NCBI GenBank assembly: GCA_041743025.1
Contig: JBGTNM010000180.1
Span: forward strand, 3,315-67,314
Reading direction: 5' to 3'
Source: Microcystaceae cyanobacterium
Lineage (GTDB): Bacteria > Cyanobacteriota > Cyanobacteriia > Cyanobacteriales > Microcystaceae
DNA length: 64,000 bases
Both the position numbers and the translations under genes were made by a program. Of the stretch, positions 23,601-36,576 are shown in pieces. A model generated the notes under the pieces. It ran no database searches, had not been told where the DNA came from, and saw only the letters and a list, made by a program, of their open reading frames with translations. The stretch's first letter is position 1, and the number at the start of each line of letters is the position of its first letter.

Positions 23601-25250
23601 ATGTCCAGTAAATTGGGGAAACTAGAGGGGTTCAAGATTCTATTACTAGGCTTTCTGGGTAGTCTCTCTACGATTTTACCTGCTCGTGCTGCTGAGTATA
23701 TTTATCTAAATTATGGTGCTTTTAACTTTTCTTTATCTGTTGAAGCTTTAACTCTTTTTGCTCAAGAGGGAAAAGTCACTAAAGAATTAGCGTTTTATCT
23801 TAATCGTTTAAGCCCTCAAAAACAAAATCAGCTACGAGCTTTTCTCCGCGCTCGTTATGACGTAAAACCAATTATTCTTTATCGCTTAGGTCAAACTTAT
23901 GCTGGCGATCAATTACTAACTATTTTAGGAAAAGCAATACAATTACCAGGTGGTCGTAATGGTTATTACGCAATTCGAGGAGCAATTATTTATTCCTCAA
24001 CAACGCCTGAAGGAGTCAGCGTTATTAATGTTTTGCGTAATTTTTCAACTAATATTCAACTGGATATGAACTTTATTGTTCAGTCTATCGGGCAAATTTC
24101 TAGCCTCATTAAAGAAACTCAAATTTTAAGAGAATCTCTGAATCGCCAAAGCGGCAGCAATATTACTTCTATTGATGAATCGAAGAGACAAACCCCTTTG
24201 GATTTACAGAAAACAGGAGGTTTTACGATTTCTCAAGAAATTTTAAAACTCTACGATACTCAACGTGATCGCCCGTTAACGGTTGTGATTTATCTGCCAC
24301 AATCCCAACAATCTGAAATTCCTGTAATTGTTATTTCTAATGGATTGGGGGCGCACCGCGATCGCTTTTCATTTTTAGCACGTCATCTGGCTTCTCATGG
24401 CTTTGCTGTTGTCATTCCCGATCATCCTAACAGCAACGATCAGCGTCAACAAGACTTTTATGAAGGTTTATATAAAGAACCGTTTGATGCAACAGAATTT
24501 ACTGATCGTCCCTTAGATGTTTCTTATACCCTCGATCAATTAGAAAAACTGAATCAGACGCAATTTCAAGGTAAGCTAAATTTAAAACAAGTTGGAATTT
24601 TTGGTTACTCTTTTGGGGGAACGACTGCCTTTGCATTAGGAGGAGCGCGGATAAATTTTACCCAACTAAAGCAAGATTGTCAATCTCCCAATGGGTTTCT
24701 TAATCTTTCGATTTTGTATCAATGTCGTGCTTTAGAAATCCCCCCAAAAAACTACGACTTGCAAGATACTCGTATTAAAGCAGCCTTTGTTTTTGTGCCT
24801 TTCGGCAAAAGCCTTTATGGACAGATAGAAATGCAGCGTATTAATATTCCTATCTTCTGGCAGGCGACAGATGAAGATGTAATTACCCCACTTTTAAATG
24901 AGCAAGTTCCTGCTTTTAATTGGTTGCCATTAGCTAATAAATATCTCGCAATATCGGAAAAACTGCCCCATACTCGTGTTATTCTTAATACCATGAATCA
25001 ATGGGGAAATCAAACTGTTTCCGCAGAAAACCTGATTCAAGTTACTCAAAATTATTTAAATGCCATGAGTCTTGCTTTTTTTCAAGTTTATATTGCTCAA
25101 GAAGATGAATATCACTCGTACTTACAGCCGTCTTATACTCAGGTACTGAGTGAAACCCCTTTCAATTTGCATCTGCTAAGACAACTACCCTTACCCGATG
25201 TCTCTCTACCACAAGGAAGAAAAAATTTAGGAAAAAAAGAATACAATTAA
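23601..25250 (+). CDS. Secreted alpha/beta hydrolase with an N-terminal cyanobacterial DUF1400-like domain (PAF-acetylhydrolase/lipase-like)
   Basis: 549 aa. Signal peptide. N-terminal domain (YLNYGAFNFSLSVEALTLFAQEGKVT...). GYSFGGTTA nucleophile elbow. The DUF assignment is from memory. Confidence 0.65.
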   Translation: MSSKLGKLEGFKILLLGFLGSLSTILPARAAEYIYLNYGAFNFSLSVEALTLFAQEGKVTKELAFYLNRLSPQKQNQLRAFLRARYDVKPIILYRLGQTYAGDQLLTILGKAIQLPGGRNGYYAIRGAIIYSSTTPEGVSVINVLRNFSTNIQLDMNFIVQSIGQISSLIKETQILRESLNRQSGSNITSIDESKRQTPLDLQKTGGFTISQEILKLYDTQRDRPLTVVIYLPQSQQSEIPVIVISNGLGAHRDRFSFLARHLASHGFAVVIPDHPNSNDQRQQDFYEGLYKEPFDATEFTDRPLDVSYTLDQLEKLNQTQFQGKLNLKQVGIFGYSFGGTTAFALGGARINFTQLKQDCQSPNGFLNLSILYQCRALEIPPKNYDLQDTRIKAAFVFVPFGKSLYGQIEMQRINIPIFWQATDEDVITPLLNEQVPAFNWLPLANKYLAISEKLPHTRVILNTMNQWGNQTVSAENLIQVTQNYLNAMSLAFFQVYIAQEDEYHSYLQPSYTQVLSETPFNLHLLRQLPLPDVSLPQGRKNLGKKEYN

Positions 25251-25282
25251 ACTGTGTTTCATTAGCGAGAAAATTACTATAT

Positions 25283-26923
25283 ATGGAAAAAAACTCTCTA
25301 AGATCTTCATCAAAATTATCTTACTTTTGGATATTATTTTGTAGTATAATTTTGTTTTTAGGACTCTTTTTTCGTTTAGTTAATCTCGATAGTAAAATTT
25401 ATTGGGTAGATGAAGTGGCAACTTCTCTACGAATTTCTGGTTTTACTAAACAGGAGGCAATTGAGCAAGTTTCACATCGGGGATTAATGAGTGTTGAAGA
25501 TTTGCAAAAATTTCAAAAAGTAACTCCTTCAAAAAACATTAATGACATTTTAAACGCGCTTACTAGTAGTCCAGAGCACGCCCCTTTATACTTTATAATT
25601 GCTAAATATTGGACAGATCTTTTCGGGAGTTCAGTATTAGCAATTAGAAGCTTATCCGTTGTTTTTAGTCTATTAACTTTACCCTGTTTATATTGGCTTT
25701 GTTTAACCCTCTTTCAGTCACCTCTAGTGGGATTAATTGCTGTTTTATTAATGTCGATTTCTCCTTTGAATGTTGCTTACGCTCAAGAAGCTCGTCCTTA
25801 TAGTTTATGGATAACTGCCACGATACTTTCTCATATCACATTATTAAGGGCGTTAGAAAAAAGTCACTGTTTAAATTGGGCTTTGTATACAGGGACTATT
25901 ATTCTTAGTTTTTATACCTCTTTATTATCGTTTTTAGTCGTAGTAGGACAAATCCTTTACGTGGTTATCATTGAAAATTTTTGTTTTAAACCAAGAGTAA
26001 TTTATCAATGGCTAGCTATAAGTTTAGGAATTTTAGCTTTTAGTCCTTGGTTATTTATTATTTTTCAAAATTGGCAACGGCTTCAAGATAATACGACCTG
26101 GATGAGAATGTCAATAAACTGGATAGCAATGATAGTTATTTGGATTTATAGTTTGGTTACCATTTTTATAGAATCGCCTATTTATAGACAAATTGATTTT
26201 ATTCTTCTTACCCGTATCTTAATCGATTTAAGTTTGTTAATACTCATCTTTTTTTCTTTTTACTTTCTTTGCCAAAAAACCTCTCCAAAAATCAAACTAT
26301 TTATTTTTGTTCAATTTATCACTCCTCTCATTATTCTCAGAGCAATTGATTTAAGAATTGGCGGACAAAGTTCAACTGCTATCCGCTATATGATACCTAG
26401 CTATTTGGGAATTCAATTGTCAGTTGCTTATCTATTTAAAAATAAATTGTTTTCATCTTCTTTTCAAAGCTTAAGACAGCAAAAAAAGTGGAGAATCATT
26501 TTTGGAGGAATTATATTAATTGGCGTTTTCTCTGGTATTTTTATGTTAGACAAATCACCTCAATATCAGAAAACTCGCAATTTACATAATCTTCCCATTG
26601 CCAAAATCATCAACCAAACTCATACTCCACTTTTATTGGCTGAACCCCAAGAAATACTTGATGTTATTTCCCTGAGTTATTCTTTAAATAAAGCAACGCA
26701 AATACAATTTCTCTCAACTGCTAACCTGTCAACATTATTCACTCAATGCCAAAATATATTTTTATTTAATCCTTCTCAAGAATTACAGAGGAATCTTAAG
26801 CAATCAGAAAAAAGACTACAATTAATTCAAATTTATAAACCTAAATTGTTAATAAGTAATGAAATTTACTTATCTCTTTGGAAAGTAACCAAATTGAGTA
26901 ATAATTGCCCTCAAAATTTATAA
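25283..26923 (+). CDS. GT-C fold membrane glycosyltransferase (ArnT/PMT family, GT39/GT83-like)
   Basis: 546 aa and polytopic. First-loop acidic motif YWVDEVAT. Many TM helices followed by a C-terminal soluble domain. Confidence 0.7.
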   Translation: MEKNSLRSSSKLSYFWILFCSIILFLGLFFRLVNLDSKIYWVDEVATSLRISGFTKQEAIEQVSHRGLMSVEDLQKFQKVTPSKNINDILNALTSSPEHAPLYFIIAKYWTDLFGSSVLAIRSLSVVFSLLTLPCLYWLCLTLFQSPLVGLIAVLLMSISPLNVAYAQEARPYSLWITATILSHITLLRALEKSHCLNWALYTGTIILSFYTSLLSFLVVVGQILYVVIIENFCFKPRVIYQWLAISLGILAFSPWLFIIFQNWQRLQDNTTWMRMSINWIAMIVIWIYSLVTIFIESPIYRQIDFILLTRILIDLSLLILIFFSFYFLCQKTSPKIKLFIFVQFITPLIILRAIDLRIGGQSSTAIRYMIPSYLGIQLSVAYLFKNKLFSSSFQSLRQQKKWRIIFGGIILIGVFSGIFMLDKSPQYQKTRNLHNLPIAKIINQTHTPLLLAEPQEILDVISLSYSLNKATQIQFLSTANLSTLFTQCQNIFLFNPSQELQRNLKQSEKRLQLIQIYKPKLLISNEIYLSLWKVTKLSNNCPQNL

Positions 26924-26925
26924 GA

Positions 26926-27702
26926 ATGATCAAAACTATGTACCAAGCCATCTTAAAATTGAACCAAAGATATCGCCAACTTATTTTAATACAAGGTGAA
27001 AAATATTTTAGAAAATTAGAAAAAATAATAGCGTATTACTCTTTAGTTGATAATACAACTTTTTTGGCAAAACAACAATTTAGCTGGGTAGCTAATTTAG
27101 AATCGCAATGGAAAATTATCCGTCAAGAATTAGATGATGTTATGGAAAATTTGGAAATTATTCCTAATTTTCAAGATATTTCACCTGACCAATATAACAT
27201 TACTCAGGATAATCGCTGGAAAACGTATTTTTTCTATGCCTACGGATTGAAAGCGAAAAAAAATTGCGAAAGATGTCCTCAAACCACTCGCCTAATTGAA
27301 CAAATTCCAGGGATGAAAACTGCTTTTTTCTCTATCTTATTACCGCATAAACATATACCAGAACACTGTGGCCCGTATAAGGGAGTTCTTCGCTATCATC
27401 TTGCTTTGAAAGTTCCTGAACCGAACACAGCTTGTAAAATCAGAGTTGAAAATGATGTTCGTTATTGGGAGGAGGGAAAAAGCTTGATTTTTGATGATAC
27501 TTTTCCTCACGAAGCCTGGAATGAAACCGATGATATTCGCGTTATTTTGTTTCTAGATTTTATTCGCCCTCTAAAATTTCCTATCTCACTAGTTAACCAA
27601 TTTATTATTTGGCTTGTGGCAATTTCTCCTTATGTTCAAAGTGGTAAAAAAAATCTCGAAAACTGGGAGATTTTTGTTTCTTCCTCAACCGTTGCCGAAT
27701 AA
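26926..27702 (+). CDS. Aspartyl/asparaginyl beta-hydroxylase family protein (LpxO/OlsC-type lipid hydroxylase family)
   Basis: The track ORF starts at TTG 26905; ATG at 26926 lies 2 nt after the upstream stop. Motifs: LLPHKHIPEHCGPYKGVLRYHLALKVP, FDDTFPHEAWN. Confidence 0.75.
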   Translation: MIKTMYQAILKLNQRYRQLILIQGEKYFRKLEKIIAYYSLVDNTTFLAKQQFSWVANLESQWKIIRQELDDVMENLEIIPNFQDISPDQYNITQDNRWKTYFFYAYGLKAKKNCERCPQTTRLIEQIPGMKTAFFSILLPHKHIPEHCGPYKGVLRYHLALKVPEPNTACKIRVENDVRYWEEGKSLIFDDTFPHEAWNETDDIRVILFLDFIRPLKFPISLVNQFIIWLVAISPYVQSGKKNLENWEIFVSSSTVAE

Positions 27703-27745: not shown

Positions 27746-28459
27746 TTAGGTTGCCGCAGAATTATTCTGTCTTTTAAAACTTCTTGCGACACAACCAGAA
27801 GTCTTATCTTTTGCTTTTTTCTTTTCTGGCTTCAGCGCTCTCGATTCTAGTTGTATTTCGGGAATTTCTCGCAATTGTTCCTCGTCTAAACGGTATTGTT
27901 CGCACACGAGACTGAGACGAACGCCAGAACTGGTGACGGGTTTGACAGAATGGGTGAGATCGCCTTGAAAGAAGACTAGGGTGTTTGTACACGGACGGAC
28001 ACGAGCAACGGCACGAGCGCGCGATTCGAGGATCAGTTCTCCCCCTTCTAGAGCGTCCGGAACCTTGACGTAGAGGACGCTAACCACGAGCGGGTTCGCG
28101 ATCGTTTTACAGTAGGAACGGAGGGAGCGATCAATGTGGGGATCGACCCGTGAGCCACTTTCTAACAGTAAAGGATTGAGATAAAAGGCGTTACAGTCGG
28201 CTTGTAAGGCTCGATCGAGGTAGGGTTTAAAGTAGGGAAAATGCTTTTCGACCTCCCCGATACGCGAACGCCGAAAAGCGAGCGAGAAGCCTTTAGTTCT
28301 CACGAAATCCCGATTTAAATTATTGGCCGTGAAGTAGGGACAAGCGAGGATCTGGCCTTGTAATTGGCTAAGGTAGGCCAAGGGAAAAGCGGAGAGGTAT
28401 TGGGAATAGTATGGCACGGATGGCTCCTCAGAAAAACCCAAAGCGCGATCGCTACTCAT
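27746..28459 (-). CDS. 2OG-Fe(II) oxygenase superfamily protein
   Basis: 237 aa. HxD (DPHIDRS), distal His (LTHSVKPV) and Arg (VRLSLV) are arranged as in prolyl-hydroxylase-like dioxygenases. Confidence 0.6.
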   Translation of the reverse strand: MSSDRALGFSEEPSVPYYSQYLSAFPLAYLSQLQGQILACPYFTANNLNRDFVRTKGFSLAFRRSRIGEVEKHFPYFKPYLDRALQADCNAFYLNPLLLESGSRVDPHIDRSLRSYCKTIANPLVVSVLYVKVPDALEGGELILESRARAVARVRPCTNTLVFFQGDLTHSVKPVTSSGVRLSLVCEQYRLDEEQLREIPEIQLESRALKPEKKKAKDKTSGCVARSFKRQNNSAAT

Positions 28460-28738: not shown

Positions 28739-30169
28739 ATGGCAGCAGCAGCACAAGCAGTAACGGTTTTCTTTTCTTACTCTCATCAAGACGAAACCTT
28801 TCGCGATGAACTAGCCAAACATCTCAGCATTTTAGAACGTCAGAGCGTAATTTCGGGCTGGCACGATCGCAAGATTCTTCCTGGTGAGGAATGGGATCAC
28901 CAAATTGATGAAAATTTACAGAAGGCTGATATTATTCTCTTGCTTATCAGTTCTGATTTTATCGCTTCTAACTATTGTTGGGATGTCGAAGTTAAAATAT
29001 CGATGCAACGCCATGAAGCAGGCAATGGAGTTGTTATTCCGATTATTCTGCGTCGGGTAGATTGGAGTGGCGCAGTCTTTGGAAAATTGCAATTTTTACC
29101 GAAAAATGCCGATCCTGTGGATTCTTGGAAAAGTCGAGATGATGCCTATCATAATATTACCCAAGGTATTCGCGCCGTTGCCAACCAATTAATTCAAAAA
29201 CGACAGCAACAGAGAATCACCGAAAGCAAACAAGCAGCACTCCAGCAGTACCGTCAAAAAGTAGAAGAATTCGCTGCCGATGGTGAAATTTCCTATGTAG
29301 AAACGGTCATTTTACAGGACTTGCAGCAGCAGTTAGGATTGACAGATGAAGAAGCAGAAGCAGTAAAAAAGGCAGTATTAGAACCGATTGAGCAGTATCA
29401 GAATAATTTAAATCGTTACCGACAGACTTTTATTAATTTGTTGCAAAAAAGCGGTAATAAGTTGCAAACAAAAGAGCGAAATGAATTAAAGAAACTACAA
29501 GATTATTTTAAGTTGCGAGATGAAGATATTATAAAAATTGAGGCAGAACTGACGGCTAACCTTCAAGAAAACGTTCCCTCAAATGTTGTTTCAGAGCGGG
29601 AGAAGACTAAAATTTCTCTACCTCAACCGATACAAACAAAGGAAATTGAACTCAAAAGCGAAAGAGGGGTTAACTATACAGAACTACGCGATTTACTAGC
29701 AGCAGGAGAATGGAAAAAAGCGGATGAAGAAACCGCAAAGGTGATGTTCAAAGTAGCGAATAGAGAAGAAGAGGGATGGTTAAGGGTTGAAGATATTGAT
29801 AGCTTTCCCTGTGAGGACTTAGGGACAATTGATAGACTTTGGGTACACTACAGCAAGGGAAAATTTGGCTTTAGTGTGCAAAAGGAAATTTACCAAAGCT
29901 TAGGCGGGCAGAGAGAGTATAATAAGGAAGTCTGGGAACAGTTTGGAGATGCTGTAGGATGGCGTGTGAAGAAGAAGTGGATATACTACAAAGATATTAC
30001 TTTTAGCTTAGAGGCTCCTCAAGGACACCTCCCTAATGAGGTTCGTTCTATAAAGCTTACAAAAAATTGTGAACAATTATTAAGAGGTGTTTTTCGACGA
30101 AGCTATGCGGGTTCTGGCTTTTCGATACCTGACACCGAGAAACTAACCATCATCCCCCTTTTTTTGTAG
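28739..30169 (+). CDS. TIR domain - coiled coil - GUN4 domain fusion protein
   Basis: 476 aa. N-terminal TIR_2-like domain (VFFSYSHQDETF...ADIILLLISSDFIASNYCWDVEV, with the WxxxE-type glutamate). Central heptad-rich region. C-terminal GUN4 domain (ELRDLLAAGEWKKADEET...FPCEDLGTIDRLWVHYSKGKFGFSVQKEIY...GWR...APQGHLP). Confidence 0.8.
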   Translation: MAAAAQAVTVFFSYSHQDETFRDELAKHLSILERQSVISGWHDRKILPGEEWDHQIDENLQKADIILLLISSDFIASNYCWDVEVKISMQRHEAGNGVVIPIILRRVDWSGAVFGKLQFLPKNADPVDSWKSRDDAYHNITQGIRAVANQLIQKRQQQRITESKQAALQQYRQKVEEFAADGEISYVETVILQDLQQQLGLTDEEAEAVKKAVLEPIEQYQNNLNRYRQTFINLLQKSGNKLQTKERNELKKLQDYFKLRDEDIIKIEAELTANLQENVPSNVVSEREKTKISLPQPIQTKEIELKSERGVNYTELRDLLAAGEWKKADEETAKVMFKVANREEEGWLRVEDIDSFPCEDLGTIDRLWVHYSKGKFGFSVQKEIYQSLGGQREYNKEVWEQFGDAVGWRVKKKWIYYKDITFSLEAPQGHLPNEVRSIKLTKNCEQLLRGVFRRSYAGSGFSIPDTEKLTIIPLFL

Positions 30170-30919
30170 TATGCTGCCGGCAACTTGGGGGTTGTAGCAG
30201 TTGGCAAAAATAAACTTATCTGACACCGCTAAAATTTCTGGTGTCACTCCTTCCCACTCATCCCAGAGGGATAATTGTCCTGGTGAAGACTTTTTAGATT
30301 TCTTTTTGATTTTGACACCCGCCAGTAATTTGCTTCCCCAATGATTGCGCTTTTCAGGTTTCGGTTGCGGACGATATTTTTTGCAAAACCCTCGGTATTT
30401 AGCAGCACATTCGTTTAATGTCTTCCCTAATGACAAAAAAGCTGGATGCCATTGAGTCAAACCGTCATCACTGAGCCTATCATGAGTACCATAATTACTG
30501 AAATCATAAAAGTATCCTGGCTGCATTCCGGCGACTTTGGGATTAGCATGAATGTAGCGCAAAGTATTTAAAGCACGACGCTTATCGGTATTAGCAAACC
30601 CAGTGCTATGATATCGCTTTTCCCAAAAATGTCCGGTTCGATTGAGCATTCGATTGAAACACATAGCAGTATACCAATTCAACCAGTGCATGATTTTGGG
30701 TAAATCCTCTGGTTGCTTCGGTTCGATGAGATAATGGATATGATTGCTCATCACGCAGAGAGCAAAGAGTTTAAACTGATATTTATCTATGGCTTTTTTG
30801 ATCGCAAATAGAAGTACCTGACGACACTCTAGGCGAGTTAGACGAAACTCTCGATTATTACAGCGAGTCGTGACATGATAGGAGGAATCAGGCAGTAATT
30901 GTCGGGGTTGACGAGGCAT
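30143..30919 (-). CDS. REP-associated tyrosine transposase (RAYT, IS200/Y1 HUH family)
   Basis: 258 aa. YHVTTRCNNREF; HUH motif MSNHIHYLIEP; catalytic Tyr motif LRYIHANPKVAG. Confidence 0.8.
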   Translation of the reverse strand: MPRQPRQLLPDSSYHVTTRCNNREFRLTRLECRQVLLFAIKKAIDKYQFKLFALCVMSNHIHYLIEPKQPEDLPKIMHWLNWYTAMCFNRMLNRTGHFWEKRYHSTGFANTDKRRALNTLRYIHANPKVAGMQPGYFYDFSNYGTHDRLSDDGLTQWHPAFLSLGKTLNECAAKYRGFCKKYRPQPKPEKRNHWGSKLLAGVKIKKKSKKSSPGQLSLWDEWEGVTPEILAVSDKFIFANCYNPQVAGSILQKKGDDG

Positions 30920-31039
30920 TAGGGATTTTTATGAGAATAGACATAGTGTAGATTTTAGATTGTCATGTTCTCTTCTCTCGCGTCGAGACTTGCAGACTGT
31001 AAGATATAATCATTACAAGCAATAAAAAGGAGATAATAA

Positions 31040-31222
31040 TTGCCAACAGAAAAACAAAAAGACACCGCTATTTTTATCTGTCAGTTACTTTCTAATCTTT
31101 ATCAACCCATCAATTTATTTCGTTACGATCGCAGGCTCAAAATTATCTATATCTTAGCTGGAATTAATGATGGTTTAGAAATTATTATTGATCGAGAAGG
31201 GAATTGGGATTTTGAATCATGA
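31040..31222 (+). CDS. Small hypothetical protein, first member of ATGA-coupled pair 1
   Basis: 60 aa, TTG start in the track. Its TGA stop (31220-31222) overlaps the ATG of the next ORF (31219-31221). Confidence 0.45.
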   Translation: MPTEKQKDTAIFICQLLSNLYQPINLFRYDRRLKIIYILAGINDGLEIIIDREGNWDFES

Positions 31223-31419
31223 AAAAATTACTGTCTGCAATGAACAACGCTGAACTACGTCAATATTTATCTGAAAATCGCAATAATGAAACAGCGTTTA
31301 GTGAAGCTTTAGAAGTATTAATGAGTCGTAAACAAAATAGCTTCAAGTACCCACCCCCTGACGAGATGAGTTATGAGGAAGTTGAGGCAATTTTTAAGGC
31401 AAAATTAAGTCAAGAATAG
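31219..31419 (+). CDS. Small hypothetical protein, second member of pair 1
   Basis: 66 aa. MKKLLSAMNNAELRQYLSENRNNETAFSEAL resembles a recurrent cyanobacterial small-protein family (recall only). Confidence 0.5.
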   Translation: MKKLLSAMNNAELRQYLSENRNNETAFSEALEVLMSRKQNSFKYPPPDEMSYEEVEAIFKAKLSQE

Positions 31420-31471
31420 GCTGAGAATTGGTAGAATTAGATAAATCATAATATACCTAAATCAAACTCAG

Positions 31472-31657
31472 GTGGAACCAACCGAAGAACAATATCTTAT
31501 CCTCAATGCCCTTGAAACTCTAGGAATTTTACTATTTAGAGTTTATGATGAAGATAACGGAGCGTGGTTATTGATTACCACTAGTACGATTTTACCCAGA
31601 TCCTATCTATTGCCTAACGGTGAAATAGTTCCTATTGAATGGATGTTAGAACCATGA
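31472..31657 (+). CDS. Small hypothetical protein, first member of ATGA-coupled pair 2
   Basis: 61 aa, GTG start. Its TGA stop at 31655-31657 overlaps the ATG at 31654. Confidence 0.4.
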   Translation: MEPTEEQYLILNALETLGILLFRVYDEDNGAWLLITTSTILPRSYLLPNGEIVPIEWMLEP

Positions 31658-31920
31658 GAGAACCCACAGAATTAGAAAAACAACGATATGACAGAATTGG
31701 AGAAATTGCTGCTAGAGGAAGACAACGCTATTTAGAAGCAGGAGGAGATCCTAAACGGAGTCCTAGTGGTTACAAAGGAGATGATTATTTAACTGATGAA
31801 GAAAGACAAGAAATATTACAGCTTGCGCGTCAAGTTTTTGGTGTAACCAGACAAGATAATCAGATTTTTTGTCAAGGAAAAACTTGGACAGTAACACAGC
31901 GATCAGTATCTACGAAATAA
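31654..31920 (+). CDS. Small hypothetical protein, second member of pair 2
   Basis: The track ORF starts at 31639. An internal ATG at 31654 gives MREPTELEKQRYDRIGEIAARGRQRYLEAGG and an ATGA overlap with the upstream ORF. Confidence 0.45.
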   Translation: MREPTELEKQRYDRIGEIAARGRQRYLEAGGDPKRSPSGYKGDDYLTDEERQEILQLARQVFGVTRQDNQIFCQGKTWTVTQRSVSTK

Positions 31921-31932
31921 AGAATTTTAACG

Positions 31933-32151
31933 ATGCAATTTGAAATGTTTTCCGAAGTTAGATTAAAAGAAGCTCTACCGGAGTACAATATTGCTCAAAA
32001 TAGTTCAGCTATTATTGTAGATTATCTCCCCAGACCAGAAGGACAAGAAGATGGTTATATTTTAGAAGTATTAGATAACAAAAGTCAAGGATATACGGTT
32101 ATTGCCGTTACCGCTTCTAAAATTGAACCTGTCATTGTTCGTGCAATTTAA
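31933..32151 (+). CDS. Small hypothetical protein (DUF4926-like)
   Basis: 72 aa. MQFEMFSEVRLKEALPEYNI...GYILEVLDNKSQGYTVIAV matches my recollection of the DUF4926 small-protein family. Confidence 0.5.
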   Translation: MQFEMFSEVRLKEALPEYNIAQNSSAIIVDYLPRPEGQEDGYILEVLDNKSQGYTVIAVTASKIEPVIVRAI

Positions 32152-35159: not shown

Positions 35160-35355
35160 TTTTATCTTTGATGTCGGCTTGAAGACTCTCGGTTTTACCG
35201 ATGAGATGAAAAGCCGACCAGCAAAAAACCGTGAAGCACTCCTGAAGATTAACTCAAGGCTTAGAACTAAAATTGTCAATAAATGTGACAAAAATAATCT
35301 ATAAAGTCAAGTTGTATATAAAATAAAAAATAGGTCGAATGTGAAAGATAAATTA

Positions 35356-36576
35356 ATGATAGTCATTGAATATAAAATCAAAGCTAAAGAACATCAATTA
35401 TTAGCGATTGATGAAGCTATTCGTACTACCCAATTCATTCGAAACAAATCTATTCGATATTGGCTGGATAACGAAAAAGTTACGGGTGCAGATCTGAATA
35501 AAAACTGTACAAAATTAGCTAAAGAATTCAGCTTTGTTAAAGACCTTAATTCAATGGCTAGACAAAGTGCTGCTGAAAGAGCATGGTTAGCTATCTCTCG
35601 TTTCTACTCGAACTGTAAAAAGAAAATTAAAGGAAAAAAGGGATACCCTAAATTCAAGAAAAATGTTAGGTCTGTTGAGTATAAAACTTGTGGTTGGAAA
35701 TTAGATAAATTTAACAAAACTATAACCTTTAAAGATAACAAAGGTATTGGTCAAGTTAAACTTGTTGGGAGTCGAGATCTCAATTTCTATTCTGAATCAG
35801 AAATTAAAAGAGTCAGAATAGTAAAAAGAGTCGATGGGTACTATGTCCAATTCTGTATCTCAATCGATCCTAGAGTTACTGTTAATACCGAGCTAGAAGC
35901 GACAGGTAAGGCAGTAGGAATTGATTTAGGTTTAATTGATTTCATGACTGATAATGAGGGTTTAAAAGTTCCTACACCTAAGTTTTATCGCCAAGGAGAA
36001 AAACAACTCAAAAGAGCTAACCGAAAAAAATCTAAGAAATTCAAGAAAGGGCAAAAACCACCCTCTAATAATTATCAAAAAGCGAGAAAAAGATATAGCT
36101 TAAAACATTTAAGAGTAAGTAGACAGCGTCAAGAGTGGCTAAAAAGATTAGCACTGCGTTTAGTTAAGTCGAGAGATCTTATCGTCTATGAAGACTTAAA
36201 TGTTAAGGGCTTGGTCAAAAATCCGAAACTCGCTAAAAGTATTAGTGATGCTGGTTGGAGTATATTCCGTCAATGGTTAGATTACTTTGCTTATAAATAT
36301 GGAAAGGTTAGTCTAGCTGTTGCTCCTCATTACACATCTCAAGAATGTAGTAGTTGTAGCATGATTGTGAAAAAAGCACTATCAGAAAGGACTCATGTTT
36401 GTTCTAGCTGCTTGTGTGTTTTAGACAGAGATGAAAACGCCGCAATTAACATTCTTAAAAAAGGAATATACGAACTTTCAACTACCTTGGGGCGCAGGGA
36501 ATGTCAAGCTTCAGGAGATGAAACCTCTACTCTGATTGGAGAAATCCTGTCTAGAGCAAGTTTTGTCCGTGAATGA
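35356..36576 (+). CDS. tnpB: TnpB (IS200/IS605-family OrfB, RuvC-like RNA-guided endonuclease); no tnpA present
   Basis: The track ORF starts at GTG 35341; ATG at 35356 gives MIVIEYKIKAKE. RuvC residues: GIDLGL, IVYEDLN, DRDENAAINI. Zinc finger: CSSCSMIVKK...CSSCLCVLDRD. Confidence 0.9.
   Translation: MIVIEYKIKAKEHQLLAIDEAIRTTQFIRNKSIRYWLDNEKVTGADLNKNCTKLAKEFSFVKDLNSMARQSAAERAWLAISRFYSNCKKKIKGKKGYPKFKKNVRSVEYKTCGWKLDKFNKTITFKDNKGIGQVKLVGSRDLNFYSESEIKRVRIVKRVDGYYVQFCISIDPRVTVNTELEATGKAVGIDLGLIDFMTDNEGLKVPTPKFYRQGEKQLKRANRKKSKKFKKGQKPPSNNYQKARKRYSLKHLRVSRQRQEWLKRLALRLVKSRDLIVYEDLNVKGLVKNPKLAKSISDAGWSIFRQWLDYFAYKYGKVSLAVAPHYTSQECSSCSMIVKKALSERTHVCSSCLCVLDRDENAAINILKKGIYELSTTLGRRECQASGDETSTLIGEILSRASFVRE

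What the first reader, a model, noticed from the sequence alone, without database searches (positions are those of the whole stretch)
28739..30169. TIR - coiled coil - GUN4 fusion: a possible tetrapyrrole-linked NADase or conflict protein
The N-terminal ~140 aa form a bacterial TIR_2-type domain that retains the conserved glutamate context (NYCWDVEV). The C-terminal ~140 aa form a complete GUN4 domain, ending with the APQGHLP signature. The two are joined by ~150 aa of heptad-rich linker. Established knowledge: bacterial TIR domains are NAD+-cleaving effectors or signal generators in antiphage systems such as Thoeris and in other conflict systems, and GUN4 binds Mg-protoporphyrin/protoporphyrin IX. 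A fusion suggests TIR activity gated by porphyrin status, for example sensing phage interference with pigment metabolism or light stress. The gene is monocistronic and sits beside mobile DNA (a RAYT and small accessory genes). The function of such fusions is, to my knowledge, uncharacterised.
Basis: partly seen in the sequence, partly recalled or inferred. Interest (0 to 1): 0.65.

Follow-up and report, generated by a model that had tools for sequence, protein, structure and literature searches.

The report
TIR–GUN4 gene tied to transposase
The gene really does encode a likely NAD-cleaving TIR enzyme fused to a GUN4-type domain, a fusion already catalogued in cyanobacteria, but this GUN4 copy lacks the known porphyrin-binding residues, and GUN4 modules of this type end in a conserved DNA element next to a domesticated transposase, a link I found no report of.

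Summary
ORF 28739-30169 (+, 476 aa) encodes a TIR domain, a helical linker and a GUN4 domain. The TIR keeps the active-site residues of proven TIR NADases, including invariant E84. The linker is two tandem ~57-aa helical repeats, not a generic coiled coil.

The architecture, and the idea that tetrapyrrole binding regulates the fused enzyme, are already published (Kaur 2020, citing Davison 2005). The GUN4 module is the paralogue type. It keeps the hydrophobic palm but not the LxNxLR/Arg214 segment needed for porphyrin and bilin binding. No ThsA-like or other conserved protein partner was found.

Two new points emerged. The family's "C-terminal motifs" are the three reading frames of one DNA element (E1), followed by a second conserved block (E2). 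A highly conserved cyanobacterial Y1 transposase (RAYT-like) lies convergent to a GUN4 module in 46 of 53 loci, whatever the N-terminal domain. So the neighbouring RAYT is a conserved partner, not incidental mobile DNA.

In this window the gene has lost its spacer and E1. It reads through E2 into the RAYT 3' end, so roughly the last 40 residues come from normally untranslated DNA. Syntenic loci carry caspase-GUN4 instead, which points to an N-terminal domain swap.

The parts
28739..30169 (+). TIR - helical repeats - GUN4-paralogue ORF (476 aa)
   Evidence: ORF list; Pfam TIR_2, TIR and GUN4 above cut-offs; 36 homologues with the same architecture aligned
28763..29221 (+). TIR domain (aa 9-161). 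Active-site-type residues are S13, D43, S77 and E84 (E84 codon 28988-28990).
   Evidence: Pfam; PADLOC ThsB-type model PDLC00420, E 8e-57; family profile aligns to Cat1, TLRs, AbTIR and RUN1; Cat1 active-site mutants; residues invariant in the family
29234..29404 (+). Linker repeat 1 (aa 166-222), helical, motif YRQxVEEFxxDGEISxxExxILxxLQxxLGLTDEEA
   Evidence: hhalign of the two linker halves: 97.2% probability, E 4.2e-11; pLDDT above 90, helical; only sub-threshold TerB/Tic110/DUF533 similarity
29405..29575 (+). Linker repeat 2 (aa 223-279)
   Evidence: Same as repeat 1. Copy number varies in homologues: 3 in P0075, P0078, P0118 and P0119, and more in L048.
29576..29644 (+). Disordered spacer of variable length (aa 280-302)
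   Evidence: pLDDT below 50 at aa 280-299; in homologues a Q/E-rich stretch of variable length
29645..30034 (+). GUN4-paralogue core (aa 303-432), ending in APQGHLP
   Evidence: Pfam GUN4, 158.7 bits; matches PDB 1z3x, 1y6i and 4ykb; Foldseek TM 0.82-0.86; hydrophobic palm residues conserved, LxNxLR/alpha7 not conserved
30035..30169 (+). Read-through tail (aa 433-476 plus stop). It is not homologous to the tails of relatives; aa ~437-476 are translated from element E2 and the RAYT 3' end.
   Evidence: DNA alignment with syntenic loci; nhmmer E2 hit inside the ORF; pLDDT below 50-66; P0002 (88% identical) diverges right after GHLP and still ends in the E1-encoded 'SLLSR'
30057..30136 (+). E2: conserved ~80-nt DNA block that normally lies, untranslated, between a GUN4 gene's stop and the RAYT stop
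   Evidence: nhmmer E 3.7e-12. 64 of 83 E2 hits abut a RAYT 3' end; E2 also follows GUN4 genes that lack a RAYT. No consensus secondary structure on either strand. No Rfam match.
30143..30919 (-). Y1 (HUH) transposase, RAYT-like, 258 aa, intact HUH (NHIH) and Tyr (YIHANP) motifs; convergent with the TIR-GUN4 ORF and overlapping it by 27 nt
   Evidence: Pfam Y1_Tnp 68.6 bits. NCBIfam REP_Tyr_transpos 67.9 bits, below the cut-off of 80. 793 cyanobacterial homologues, 69-82% identical. A convergent GUN4 module is present in 46 of 53 loci and 37 of 43 clusters.
30970..31009 (+). E1: conserved DNA element (TTCTCTTCTCTCGCGTCGAGACTTG...ATATAA) with stop codons in all three frames. It normally terminates GUN4-module ORFs; here it is displaced to the far side of the RAYT.
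   Evidence: nhmmer E 9e-10; sequence read directly; three-frame translation gives the three family 'C-terminal motifs'; a degenerate copy sits at the same place in syntenic loci L038-L042
31040..31419 (+). DUF6888 / DUF6887 small-gene pair, syntenic with the RAYT in the closest related loci
   Evidence: Pfam; homologues 56-69% identical in the same position in L038-L041

Best explanation
The gene encodes a stand-alone member of a cyanobacteria-specific family of modular proteins. These proteins have an N-terminal effector or NTPase domain, a helical-repeat stalk, and a C-terminal GUN4-paralogue module.

Shown:
- The three-part anatomy.
- A TIR with the full set of same-subunit active-site residues of TIR NADases.
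- A stalk made of two homologous ~57-aa helical repeats.
- A GUN4 module that keeps the fold and the hydrophobic palm but has no conserved protein sequence after GHLP.

Inferred mechanism: the TIR is an NAD+-consuming or NAD-derived-signal-producing effector that becomes active when it oligomerises. Oligomerisation is controlled through the stalk by the C-terminal GUN4-type module acting as sensor. What it senses is probably not protoporphyrin or Mg-protoporphyrin bound in the canonical way, because the arginine and asparagine residues that do this are not conserved. It could be another hydrophobic ligand or a protein.

The 3' end of every module of this type is defined by DNA rather than by protein. 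First comes a G/T-rich spacer that is kept open for translation but is free in sequence and frame. Next comes element E1, which carries a stop codon in each frame. Last comes element E2.

A slowly evolving, domesticated Y1 transposase (RAYT-like, closest to Group 1 / subclass 2.1 by motifs) sits convergent to such a trailer in about 86% of its loci, whichever N-terminal domain the gene has. At this locus, the closest related RAYT loci (presumably from related organisms) carry caspase-GUN4, so the N-terminal half has been exchanged. The window gene has also lost the spacer and E1 and now reads through E2 into the RAYT 3' end. The protein is probably still functional because the tail is unconstrained in the family.
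For: - Architecture.
- TIR catalytic residues: family profile against Cat1, Cat1 mutagenesis, invariance in the family.
- Linker repeats.
- The same module on kinase, caspase, CHAT, trypsin, NACHT and AAA_35 proteins.
- Palm conserved but LxNxLR/alpha7 not conserved: read against PMC1084334 and PMC10156173.
- E1 read in three frames (21, 17 and 9 ORFs).
- E1 occurs only at GUN4 ends or next to a RAYT (75 of 75 hits in 1.07 Mb).
- Spacer open in 44 of 47 cases against 18.6 +/- 3.0 expected.
- RAYT-GUN4 pairing: 46 of 53 loci, 37 of 43 clusters, and isolate genomes of Cylindrospermum and Fischerella.
- RAYT conservation.
- Synteny and domain swap.
- Read-through in the window.
Against: - No biochemistry exists, so NADase activity and any ligand are inferred.
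- Conserved palm residues may only reflect the fold core.
- The window protein's C-terminus is unusual for the family (no spacer or E1), so it could be impaired.
- No gene-neighbourhood evidence places the gene in a defence island.
- How the RAYT relates mechanistically to the trailer is unknown. No hairpins or covariation were found, which is atypical for Y1 transposase substrates.
- The correlation between RAYT and GUN4-core divergence is confounded by species phylogeny.
Confidence: 0.55

Rival explanations
1. One reading: a TIR NADase whose activity is gated by canonical binding of protoporphyrin IX or Mg-protoporphyrin to the GUN4 domain, reporting pigment or photosynthetic status.
For: The GUN4 fold and hydrophobic palm are retained. 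The window protein happens to read N-E-V-R where Gun4 has N-Q-L-R. Kaur 2020 proposed the same idea for these fusions.
Against: At family level the segment after GHLP is hypervariable in length and sequence and is entered in all three frames. Arg214, essential for binding (PMC1084334), is Arg in 6 of 36 homologues, Asn211 is not conserved, and the alpha7 palm residues are absent. PMC10156173 reports that paralogues lack this motif and that deleting the paralogue sll1380 gives no gun4 phenotype. The window's NEVR lies in the few codons left between GHLP and the non-coding element E2.
Confidence: 0.15
2. A Thoeris-type ThsB: the TIR makes a signalling nucleotide that activates a separate ThsA-like effector.
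For: Strong match to a PADLOC ThsB model (PDLC00420, E 8e-57).
Against: Only the TIR half of that 319-position model is matched (positions 3-156). No SIR2, Macro or SLOG gene was found among the ORFs scanned from 18.7 to 37.9 kb. None was found next to 8 homologues in different genera.
Confidence: 0.05
3. The window copy is a decaying gene. Loss of its normal terminus by deletion next to the transposase has inactivated or is inactivating it.
For: The spacer and E1 are missing, and the last ~40 aa come from non-coding DNA with pLDDT below 50. Truncated relatives exist (P0071). RAYT remnants in Nostoc show that these loci do erode.
Against: The TIR, both linker repeats and the GUN4 core are intact with all invariant residues. 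The 476-aa frame is open. The tail is unconstrained in sequence and frame across the family, so a substitute tail may be tolerated.
Confidence: 0.12
4. The GUN4 module is the output rather than the sensor. For example, it could perturb Mg-chelatase or hold a photosensitising tetrapyrrole, with the TIR serving only as an oligomerisation scaffold.
For: Kaur 2020 lists GUN4 among the 'effector' positions of ternary conflict systems.
Against: The TIR keeps all catalytic-type residues invariant, which a scaffold would not require. The same C-terminal position is taken by FGE-sulfatase/C-lectin-type ligand-binding domains in sister proteins (P0080, P0084, P0087). The porphyrin-binding motif is lost.
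Confidence: 0.08
5. The RAYT-GUN4 adjacency has no functional meaning. It is inherited synteny or a coincidence of sampling.
For: RAYTs are known to be vertically inherited and to stay in place (PMC5581495). The genes are convergent, so they are not co-transcribed.
Against: - The pairing holds in 37 of 43 de-replicated RAYT clusters with at least six different N-terminal domain types.
- Other flanking genes differ between loci.
- E1-E2 is found only at GUN4 ends.
- The RAYT loci were retrieved without any GUN4 criterion.
Confidence: 0.08

Closest known systems
Cyanobacterial GUN4-fusion proteins (kinase-, caspase-, trypsin- and TIR-GUN4) noted by Davison 2005 and Kaur, Burroughs, Iyer & Aravind 2020
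   Same: Identical architecture class and the same taxonomic restriction. The same proposal that the GUN4 module regulates the fused enzyme.
   Different: In what I read (term searches of the two Aravind-lab papers; Davison 2005 only as cited), I found no mention of the helical repeat stalk, the loss of the porphyrin-binding segment in these fusions, the DNA-level E1/E2 trailer, or the transposase link.
Gun4 / GUN4 Mg-chelatase cofactor (Synechocystis Sll0558; PDB 1y6i, 4xkb; Thermosynechococcus 1z3x)
   Same: Same core fold (TM 0.82-0.86) and the same hydrophobic palm residues in alpha2-alpha6 and the alpha6/alpha7 loop up to GHLP.
   Different: No N-terminal helical bundle. No LxNxLR motif (Asn211, Arg214). 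No conserved alpha7/alpha8. It belongs with the paralogue group typified by sll1380, which has no gun4 phenotype.
Bacterial TIR NADase effectors (Cat1, AbTir, ThsB, TIR-SAVED, SPARTA TIR)
   Same: TIR fold. S13, D43, S77 and E84 are equivalent to Cat1 active-site residues S7, D33, S68 and E74. Activation by higher-order assembly is the rule in this class (established knowledge).
   Different: The regulatory module is a GUN4 paralogue reached through a helical-repeat stalk, not CARF, SAVED, Argonaute or a partner gene. There is one extra residue in the S-x-Y-C-W-x-x-E motif. Activity is untested.
RAYTs / TnpA-Y1 class 2, subclass 2.1 (Bertels Group 1)
   Same: Y1_Tnp fold. HUH (NHIH), WE and YIHxNP motifs. 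About 240-260 aa with a C-terminal tail. No recognisable REP hairpins (Table 1 of PMC6006769). High conservation typical of domesticated genes.
   Different: Near-obligate convergent pairing with one protein-domain module and its DNA trailer. The conserved flanking DNA is not palindromic and is not dispersed away from GUN4 genes within the 1.07 Mb examined. Subclass membership was judged from motifs only, not from a phylogeny.
DGR-diversified cyanobacterial multidomain proteins (kinase, caspase or TIR with a C-terminal FGE-sulfatase/C-lectin domain; PMC7517822)
   Same: Same N-terminal domains and the same stalk. A hypervariable C-terminal region sits next to a conserved DNA element.
   Different: No template repeat or reverse transcriptase is present here. 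Variability is in length and reading frame rather than adenine-specific substitutions.

Membership tests
TIR domain (Pfam TIR_2 / TIR), catalytic subtype | Profile match above the curated cut-off | tested here: met
   TIR_2 58.5 bits (cut-off 28); TIR 38.4 bits (cut-off 21.3)
TIR domain (Pfam TIR_2 / TIR), catalytic subtype | Conserved catalytic glutamate in the alphaC 'WC..E' motif, plus other same-subunit active-site residues | tested here: met
   E84 aligns with Cat1 E74; S13, D43 and S77 align with S7, D33 and S68; invariant in 36 homologues
TIR domain (Pfam TIR_2 / TIR), catalytic subtype | NAD+ cleavage activity | not testable with these tools
   Needs an enzyme assay
Thoeris (ThsB + ThsA) | TIR protein matching a ThsB model | tested here: met
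   PDLC00420, E 8.2e-57, but only profile positions 3-156 of 319
Thoeris (ThsB + ThsA) | Adjacent ThsA (SIR2, Macro or TM effector with a SLOG sensor) | tested here: not met
   No such domain in ORFs from 18.7 to 37.9 kb or around 8 homologues
GUN4 Mg-chelatase cofactor (orthologue) | GUN4 core fold and Pfam PF05419 | tested here: met
   158.7 bits; Foldseek TM 0.82-0.86
GUN4 Mg-chelatase cofactor (orthologue) | LxNxLR motif with Asn211 and Arg214 (porphyrin and bilin binding) | tested here: not met
   In the family, position 211 is A/G/L/V and position 214 is Arg in 6 of 36; L209 and L210 are absent. The family profile stops aligning to PDB GUN4 just after GHLP.
GUN4 Mg-chelatase cofactor (orthologue) | alpha7/alpha8 helices that supply Val218, Ala219, Tyr223 and Trp228 to the palm | tested here: not met
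   Replaced by a spacer of 11-48 codons with no sequence or frame conservation
GUN4 Mg-chelatase cofactor (orthologue) | Binding to ChlH and stimulation of Mg-chelatase | not testable with these tools
   Biochemical
Cyanobacterial GUN4 paralogue clade (sll1380-like; PMC10156173) | GUN4 homologue lacking the conserved Asn of LxNxLR | tested here: met
   Placement in the published tree was not tested.
PD-T4-6 anti-phage system | Ser/Thr kinase domain (the defining part of PD-T4-6) | tested here: not met
   The query matches only positions 268-426 of PDLC04062. That model is a full-length kinase+GUN4 model, which P0055 covers at 25-448 with E 8e-127. A kinase domain alone hits all the other PD-T4-6 models listed.
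EACC1-caspase system | Small EACC1 membrane protein encoded next to a caspase-domain protein | tested here: not met
   No caspase and no EACC1-like gene at this locus. The name appears only on a caspase-GUN4 relative (P0072).
RAYT (REP-associated tyrosine transposase) - the neighbouring gene | Y1 HUH transposase fold with HUH and catalytic Tyr motifs | tested here: met
   Y1_Tnp 68.6 bits; NHIH and YIHANP are invariant in alignment A4
RAYT (REP-associated tyrosine transposase) - the neighbouring gene | Score above the NCBIfam REP_Tyr_transpos cut-off | tested here: not met
   67.9 bits against a cut-off of 80
RAYT (REP-associated tyrosine transposase) - the neighbouring gene | Flanked by palindromic REP/REPIN sequences that are dispersed through the genome | tested here: not met
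   The conserved flank E1-E2 has no consensus hairpin on either strand. It occurs only at GUN4 gene ends in 1.07 Mb. Whole genomes were not surveyed.
IS200/IS605 insertion sequence | Multiple near-identical copies and subterminal hairpins at both ends | tested here: inconclusive
   A second E1-like copy lies on the RAYT 5' side only in the window and L038-L042. No hairpins were found. Copy number per genome was not determined.
Diversity-generating retroelement target | Template repeat matching the variable region, plus a reverse transcriptase | tested here: not met
   No repeat of the 3' region within 27.5-32.5 kb. No RT among the ORFs scanned.

The most novel reading that the evidence does not exclude
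The GUN4-paralogue module with its E1-E2 trailer is the cognate DNA of a domesticated Y1 (HUH) transposase. The enzyme would move, duplicate or recombine this cassette onto the 3' ends of diverse effector genes (TIR, caspase, CHAT, trypsin, kinase, NACHT/STAND). That would make it a transposase-driven domain-shuffling system for conflict or cell-death proteins of filamentous cyanobacteria. The three-frame stop element would ensure that any junction still terminates. The caspase-to-TIR exchange and the scrambled E2-RAYT-E1 order at this locus would be traces of such events.
Probability: 0.2. Interest if true: 0.85.

Novelty: new variant of a known kind. Interest (0 to 1): 0.6.

Why it matters
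On its own, the TIR-GUN4 fusion is a catalogued but uncharacterised architecture, and this copy is an ordinary member with an odd C-terminus. Three results go further.

1. The popular reading "GUN4 means porphyrin sensor" is unsafe for these fusions. The residues shown experimentally to bind porphyrin and bilin are exactly the part the family does not conserve.

2. What databases show as conserved C-terminal peptide motifs of hundreds of cyanobacterial signalling proteins is a DNA element read in three frames. This affects domain-boundary definitions, HMM building and structure prediction for the whole family.

3. A highly conserved 'transposase' found across cyanobacterial orders is almost always parked against this module. 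That gives a concrete, testable lead on two open questions: what Group-1-type RAYTs without REPs act on, and how C-terminal sensor modules get shuffled among immune-type effectors in multicellular bacteria.

Tried and rejected
- **PD-T4-6 lead.** The GUN4 region hit a PADLOC PD-T4-6 model. I rejected it as a hitchhiking artefact, because that model is a kinase+GUN4 full-length model.
- **EACC1 as the linker.** Rejected. EACC1 is a small membrane protein encoded next to caspases.
- **'FSIPDTEKL' as a degenerate copy of the family motif 'FSRVETCKL'.** This was my own earlier reading and it was wrong. The stretch is translated E2 DNA.
- **Hypervariable tail as a ligand-recognition loop or DGR target.** Rejected. 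There is no template repeat, the tail is entered in all three frames, and it is G/T-biased at DNA level.
- **Simple self-alignment of the linker.** Not significant. A profile-profile comparison was needed to show the repeat.
- **Conserved hairpins or covariation in E1-E2 as Y1 transposase substrates.** None found on either strand. No Rfam family matches.
- **Exact-sequence look-ups.** The window protein and its closest relative P0002 are not on record. The P0002 locus could therefore not be used to date the loss of E1.
- **Genome-collection scan with the whole protein.** It returned mostly GUN4-only relatives. These later proved useful for the trailer analysis.
- **Local hop versus deletion.** I considered a local hop of the [E2-RAYT] block against a simple deletion of spacer plus E1. 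The syntenic loci also have a degenerate E1 on the RAYT 5' side, so deletion or recombination is the more economical reading, but this is not settled.
- **Recurrence of DUF1400, PMT_2 and Asp/Arg-hydroxylase genes near TIR-GUN4** in two other genera. Noted but not explained.
Full report
**1. The observation**

Pfam gives TIR_2 (aa 10-118, 58.5 bits against a cut-off of 28), TIR (aa 12-161) and GUN4 (aa 307-443, 158.7 bits against 29.2). An AlphaFold2 model built on 36 homologues has mean pLDDT 85.6. It is confident for the TIR, a long helical stalk and the GUN4 core. It is disordered at aa 280-299, and confidence is low from about aa 439 to the end. Foldseek matches the model to solved GUN4 cores (TM 0.82-0.86 on the target) and to TIR domains (TM about 0.6-0.7). 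Both flanking genes are on the opposite strand. The downstream one (30143..30919, -) is a Y1_Tnp/RAYT-like gene that overlaps the last 27 nt of the ORF.

**2. The TIR domain**

In 36 TIR-GUN4 homologues (42-86% identical), the TIR core is nearly frozen. F11, S13, Y14, H16, D18, E19, S77, C80 and E84 are invariant. A TIR-only family profile finds Cat1, several Toll-like receptors, AbTIR, RUN1 and other TIRs in the PDB. In the printed Cat1 alignment, S13, D43, S77 and E84 pair with Cat1 S7, D33, S68 and E74. These residues line the Cat1 NADase site, and alanine substitutions at D33, S68 and E74 abolish Cat1 activity (PMC12162218). The TIR is therefore of the catalytic type. Actual NAD+ cleavage is inferred, not shown.

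**3. The linker**

The region between the domains is not a generic heptad coiled coil. Profile-profile comparison of aa 166-222 with aa 223-279 across the family gives 97% probability and E 4e-11 over 52 columns. So it is two copies of a ~57-aa helical repeat, with consensus roughly Y-R-Q-x-hydrophobic ... G-x-(I/L)-S ... L-x-x-L-Q-x-x-L-G-L-x-D-E-(D/E). Some homologues have three copies, and a CHAT protein has many. Pfam recognises no family here. There are only sub-threshold hints to TerB, DUF533 and Tic110-type repeats. The same stalk joins TIR to FGE-sulfatase or to DnaJ C-terminal domains, and joins caspase or CHAT domains to GUN4.

**4. What is already known**

Kaur et al. [quoted passage not shown] They also propose that tetrapyrrole binding allosterically regulates these enzymes. 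I found no experimental study. More than 3,000 database proteins are related to the query, and about 80 of the top 120 have the TIR+GUN4 architecture. All named ones are cyanobacterial.

**5. Two misleading database hits**

PADLOC reports PD-T4-6 for the GUN4 region (E 1e-48) and ThsB for the TIR (E 8e-57). The PD-T4-6 hit is an artefact. PADLOC holds about two dozen kinase models under that name, and the one hit (PDLC04062) is a full-length kinase+GUN4 model. A cyanobacterial kinase-GUN4 protein covers it from 25 to 448 of 450. The ThsB model is matched only over its TIR half. No ThsA-like gene is present among the ORFs I scanned from 18.7 to 37.9 kb. None is present around eight homologues from different genera, which sit among housekeeping genes.

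**6. The GUN4 module is a paralogue without the known ligand-binding segment**

Verdecia 2005 (PMC1084334) showed that Arg214 of Synechocystis Gun4 is indispensable for porphyrin binding. The same study showed that alpha7/alpha8 residues (Val218, Ala219, Tyr223, Trp228) complete the 'greasy palm'. The 2023 PNAS Nexus study (PMC10156173) showed that the LxNxLR motif (Leu209-Arg214) is conserved in orthologues and that Asn211 is required for bilin binding. It also showed that no paralogue keeps Asn211 and that deleting the paralogue sll1380 gives no gun4 phenotype.

I mapped the crystal-structure residues onto the family. The palm and loop hydrophobics up to GHLP are well conserved: W325, L361, I364, W368, F378, W408 and P432 are invariant or nearly so. 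In contrast, position 211 is A/G/L/V, position 214 is Arg in 6 of 36 homologues, and positions 217-219 mostly align to gaps. A family profile stops aligning to every PDB GUN4 just after GHLP. The window's own 'NEVR' after GHLP, which HMMER paired with NQLR, is not supported by the family.

**7. The 'C-terminal motif' is DNA, not protein**

After GHLP the homologues have 20-66 residues with no similarity to each other. The tails are often rich in G, W, V and C, and they end in LFSRVETCK(L/M), SLASRLV(K/N)CNI or SLLSRRDL. A DNA alignment and direct translation show that these three endings are the three reading frames of one conserved element. I call it E1: TTCTCTTCTCTCGCGTCGAGACTTGTAAAATGTAACATATAA. 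It carries a stop codon in every frame. Of 47 long GUN4-ending ORFs, 21, 17 and 9 enter it in the three frames.

Between GHLP and E1 lies a G/T-rich spacer (A 0.18, C 0.15, G 0.32, T 0.34, against 0.30, 0.19, 0.28, 0.23 in the core). It is 11-48 codons long. Its length modulo 3 is spread 19/18/10. Yet it is free of in-frame stops in 44 of 47 distinct cases, against 18.6 +/- 3.0 expected from shuffles. So a C-terminal extension is selected for, but neither its sequence nor its frame is.

E1 is followed by a second conserved block of about 80 nt, E2. That search finds E1 only at GUN4 gene ends (63 hits) or beside a RAYT at a contig edge or in the window (12 hits), and never elsewhere. It finds E2 after GUN4 genes both with and without a RAYT. 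RNAalifold finds no consensus structure in E1-E2 on either strand, and there is no Rfam match.

**8. The transposase is a conserved partner**

A tblastn of the window's neighbours against loci that had been fetched only for GUN4 similarity found 61-72% identical copies of the RAYT. They lie convergent and immediately downstream of GUN4-ending genes in several genera.

I then fetched 80 loci from metagenomes using only RAYT peptides. Of the 53 with at least 600 nt downstream, 46 have a convergent GUN4 module within 700 nt, at a median stop-to-stop distance of 92 nt. After clustering the RAYTs at 90% identity, the figure is 37 of 43. Only one of the 46 partners carries a TIR. The others sampled carry caspase, CHAT, trypsin, NACHT or AAA_35 domains.

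Independent gene calls in two isolate genomes agree. Cylindrospermum NIES-4074 has Y1_Tnp facing Pkinase-GUN4. Fischerella PCC 9605 has Y1_Tnp facing a GUN4 gene that is directly preceded by a separate TIR_2 gene.

From the GUN4 side the pairing is a minority state: 7 of 36 modules have a RAYT. In Nostoc the RAYT next to the orthologous TIR-GUN4 gene is a 146-aa remnant or is absent.

The RAYT family has 793 relatives at E <= 1e-20. All named ones are cyanobacterial and are annotated only as 'transposase'. They are 69-82% identical across orders, far more conserved than the adjacent GUN4 cores. Its motifs (NHIH, WE, YIHANP, about 258 aa with a C-terminal tail) fit TnpA-Y1 subclass 2.1 / Bertels Group 1, which is listed as having no REPs (PMC6006769). 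No paper in the searchable library mentions GUN4 together with RAYT, IS200 or Y1 transposases.

**9. What happened at this locus**

The closest RAYTs (82% identical; L038-L042) share DUF6888, DUF6887 and DUF4926 neighbours with the window, so these are orthologous loci. There, the gene facing the RAYT is caspase-GUN4. Its GUN4 core is 65-66% identical to the window's. That is closer than the core of any other TIR-GUN4 protein (47-60%) apart from the near relative P0002. The window's TIR and stalk are closest to Nostoc-type TIR-GUN4 proteins (61%). The gene is therefore a mosaic, and the N-terminal half has been exchanged on a resident GUN4 module.

The canonical order is core, spacer, E1, E2, RAYT. 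In the window it is core, E2 (30057-30136, inside the ORF), RAYT, E1 (30970-31009). With the spacer and E1 gone, the ORF has no stop until 30167-30169. Residues ~437-476 are therefore translated from E2 and the RAYT 3' end, which matches their pLDDT below 50. P0002 (88% identical) still ends in the E1-encoded 'SLLSR', so the loss is recent. A degenerate E1-like copy also sits on the 5' side of the RAYT in L038-L042. A deletion or recombination that removed the spacer and the left-hand E1 is therefore more economical than a hop of the RAYT block. I could not settle this.

**10. Most likely mechanism, and its limits**

The shown parts are the anatomy, the catalytic-type TIR, the repeat stalk, the paralogue nature of the GUN4 module, the DNA trailer, and the RAYT pairing.

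The inferred parts are as follows. The protein is probably an NAD+-consuming effector or signal generator that is switched on by oligomerisation. The C-terminal module controls this switch. The signal is probably not canonical porphyrin binding.

How the Y1 enzyme relates to the trailer is unknown. It could be the enzyme's substrate, a cassette it mobilises, or a regulatory 3' element. The absence of hairpins is unusual for this enzyme class. The neighbourhoods give no support for a defence-island setting.

**11. Verdict**

The finding as written is a correct observation of a known, uncharacterised architecture. Its mechanistic reading is weakened at the key point, porphyrin binding. What is new and robust is the DNA-level anatomy of the module's 3' end and its link to a domesticated transposase. 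That moves the locus from ordinary to moderately interesting.

Noticed in passing
window 23601-27702; L034 10222-12944; L031 11675-13315: A DUF1400 alpha/beta-hydrolase, a PMT_2 glycosyltransferase and an Asp/Arg (OlsC/LpxO-like) hydroxylase lie just upstream of the TIR-GUN4 gene. DUF1400 and Asp_Arg_Hydrox recur next to a distant TIR-GUN4 homologue (31% and 28% identity), and a PMT/PMT_2 gene recurs next to the Crinalium one. Orientation differs between loci, and I have no explanation.
   Followed up: partly
window 27746-28459 (-): The divergently oriented upstream gene is a 2OG-Fe(II) oxygenase. It matches PADLOC's 'CAS-associated 2OG' model PDLC01587 over its full length (E 1e-80). No CRISPR-Cas genes were seen nearby.
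   Followed up: no
window 30983-31010 (+), inside the displaced E1 copy: The best sigma-70-like match in the region (TCGAGA-16-TATAAT, 10 of 12) lies in E1, about 30 nt upstream of the DUF6888 start. In canonical loci the same sequence would point through E2 into the RAYT in antisense. The number of promoter-like sites in the region is not above the shuffle expectation.
   Followed up: no
L119 5835-6967 (Fischerella sp. PCC 9605): Next to the RAYT, TIR_2 (153 aa) and GUN4 (222 aa) are called as two separate, abutting genes. This is either a split two-gene version of TIR-GUN4 or a frameshifted copy.
   Followed up: no
P0055, P0072; L040 (reverse-strand positions ~3294 and ~3877): Some proteins carry two tandem GUN4 modules. 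The first module's E1 is read in frame without a stop (e.g. ...FSRVETCRL-FPVQ...). The duplication unit therefore includes the DNA trailer.
   Followed up: partly
L048 (CHAT-GUN4 partner gene, 962-aa open segment): The ~57-aa helical stalk repeat is amplified to at least six copies separated by Q/E-rich spacers, so the stalk length varies widely within the family.
   Followed up: no
window protein compared with P0002: Between the two closest relatives, the TIR is 95% identical, the stalk 89% and the GUN4 core 82%. The C-terminal module evolves fastest.
   Followed up: no
window 35341-36576 (+): A TnpB-type gene (OrfB_IS605 plus Cas12f-like TNB domain) lies 4.4 kb downstream, with no adjacent Y1 transposase. 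It appears unrelated to the RAYT unit.
   Followed up: no
window 2426-22615: Two very large ORFs (2601 and 2736 aa), followed by KS-AT, polyketide cyclase and short-chain dehydrogenase genes, indicate a PKS/NRPS-type natural-product cluster upstream. The two giant ORFs themselves were not scanned.
   Followed up: no
window 31040-32151 (+): There is a run of small genes: a DUF6888/DUF6887 pair, two ORFs with no family, and a weak DUF4926 match. The DUF6888/6887/4926 genes are syntenic with the RAYT in L038-L042. They look like toxin-antitoxin-style small accessory genes, but this was not tested.
   Followed up: partly
L062, L063, L067, L084, L090, L100, L110: Seven RAYT loci have no GUN4 module, E1 or (with one exception) E2 downstream. 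These could show what the RAYT looks like when unpaired.
   Followed up: partly
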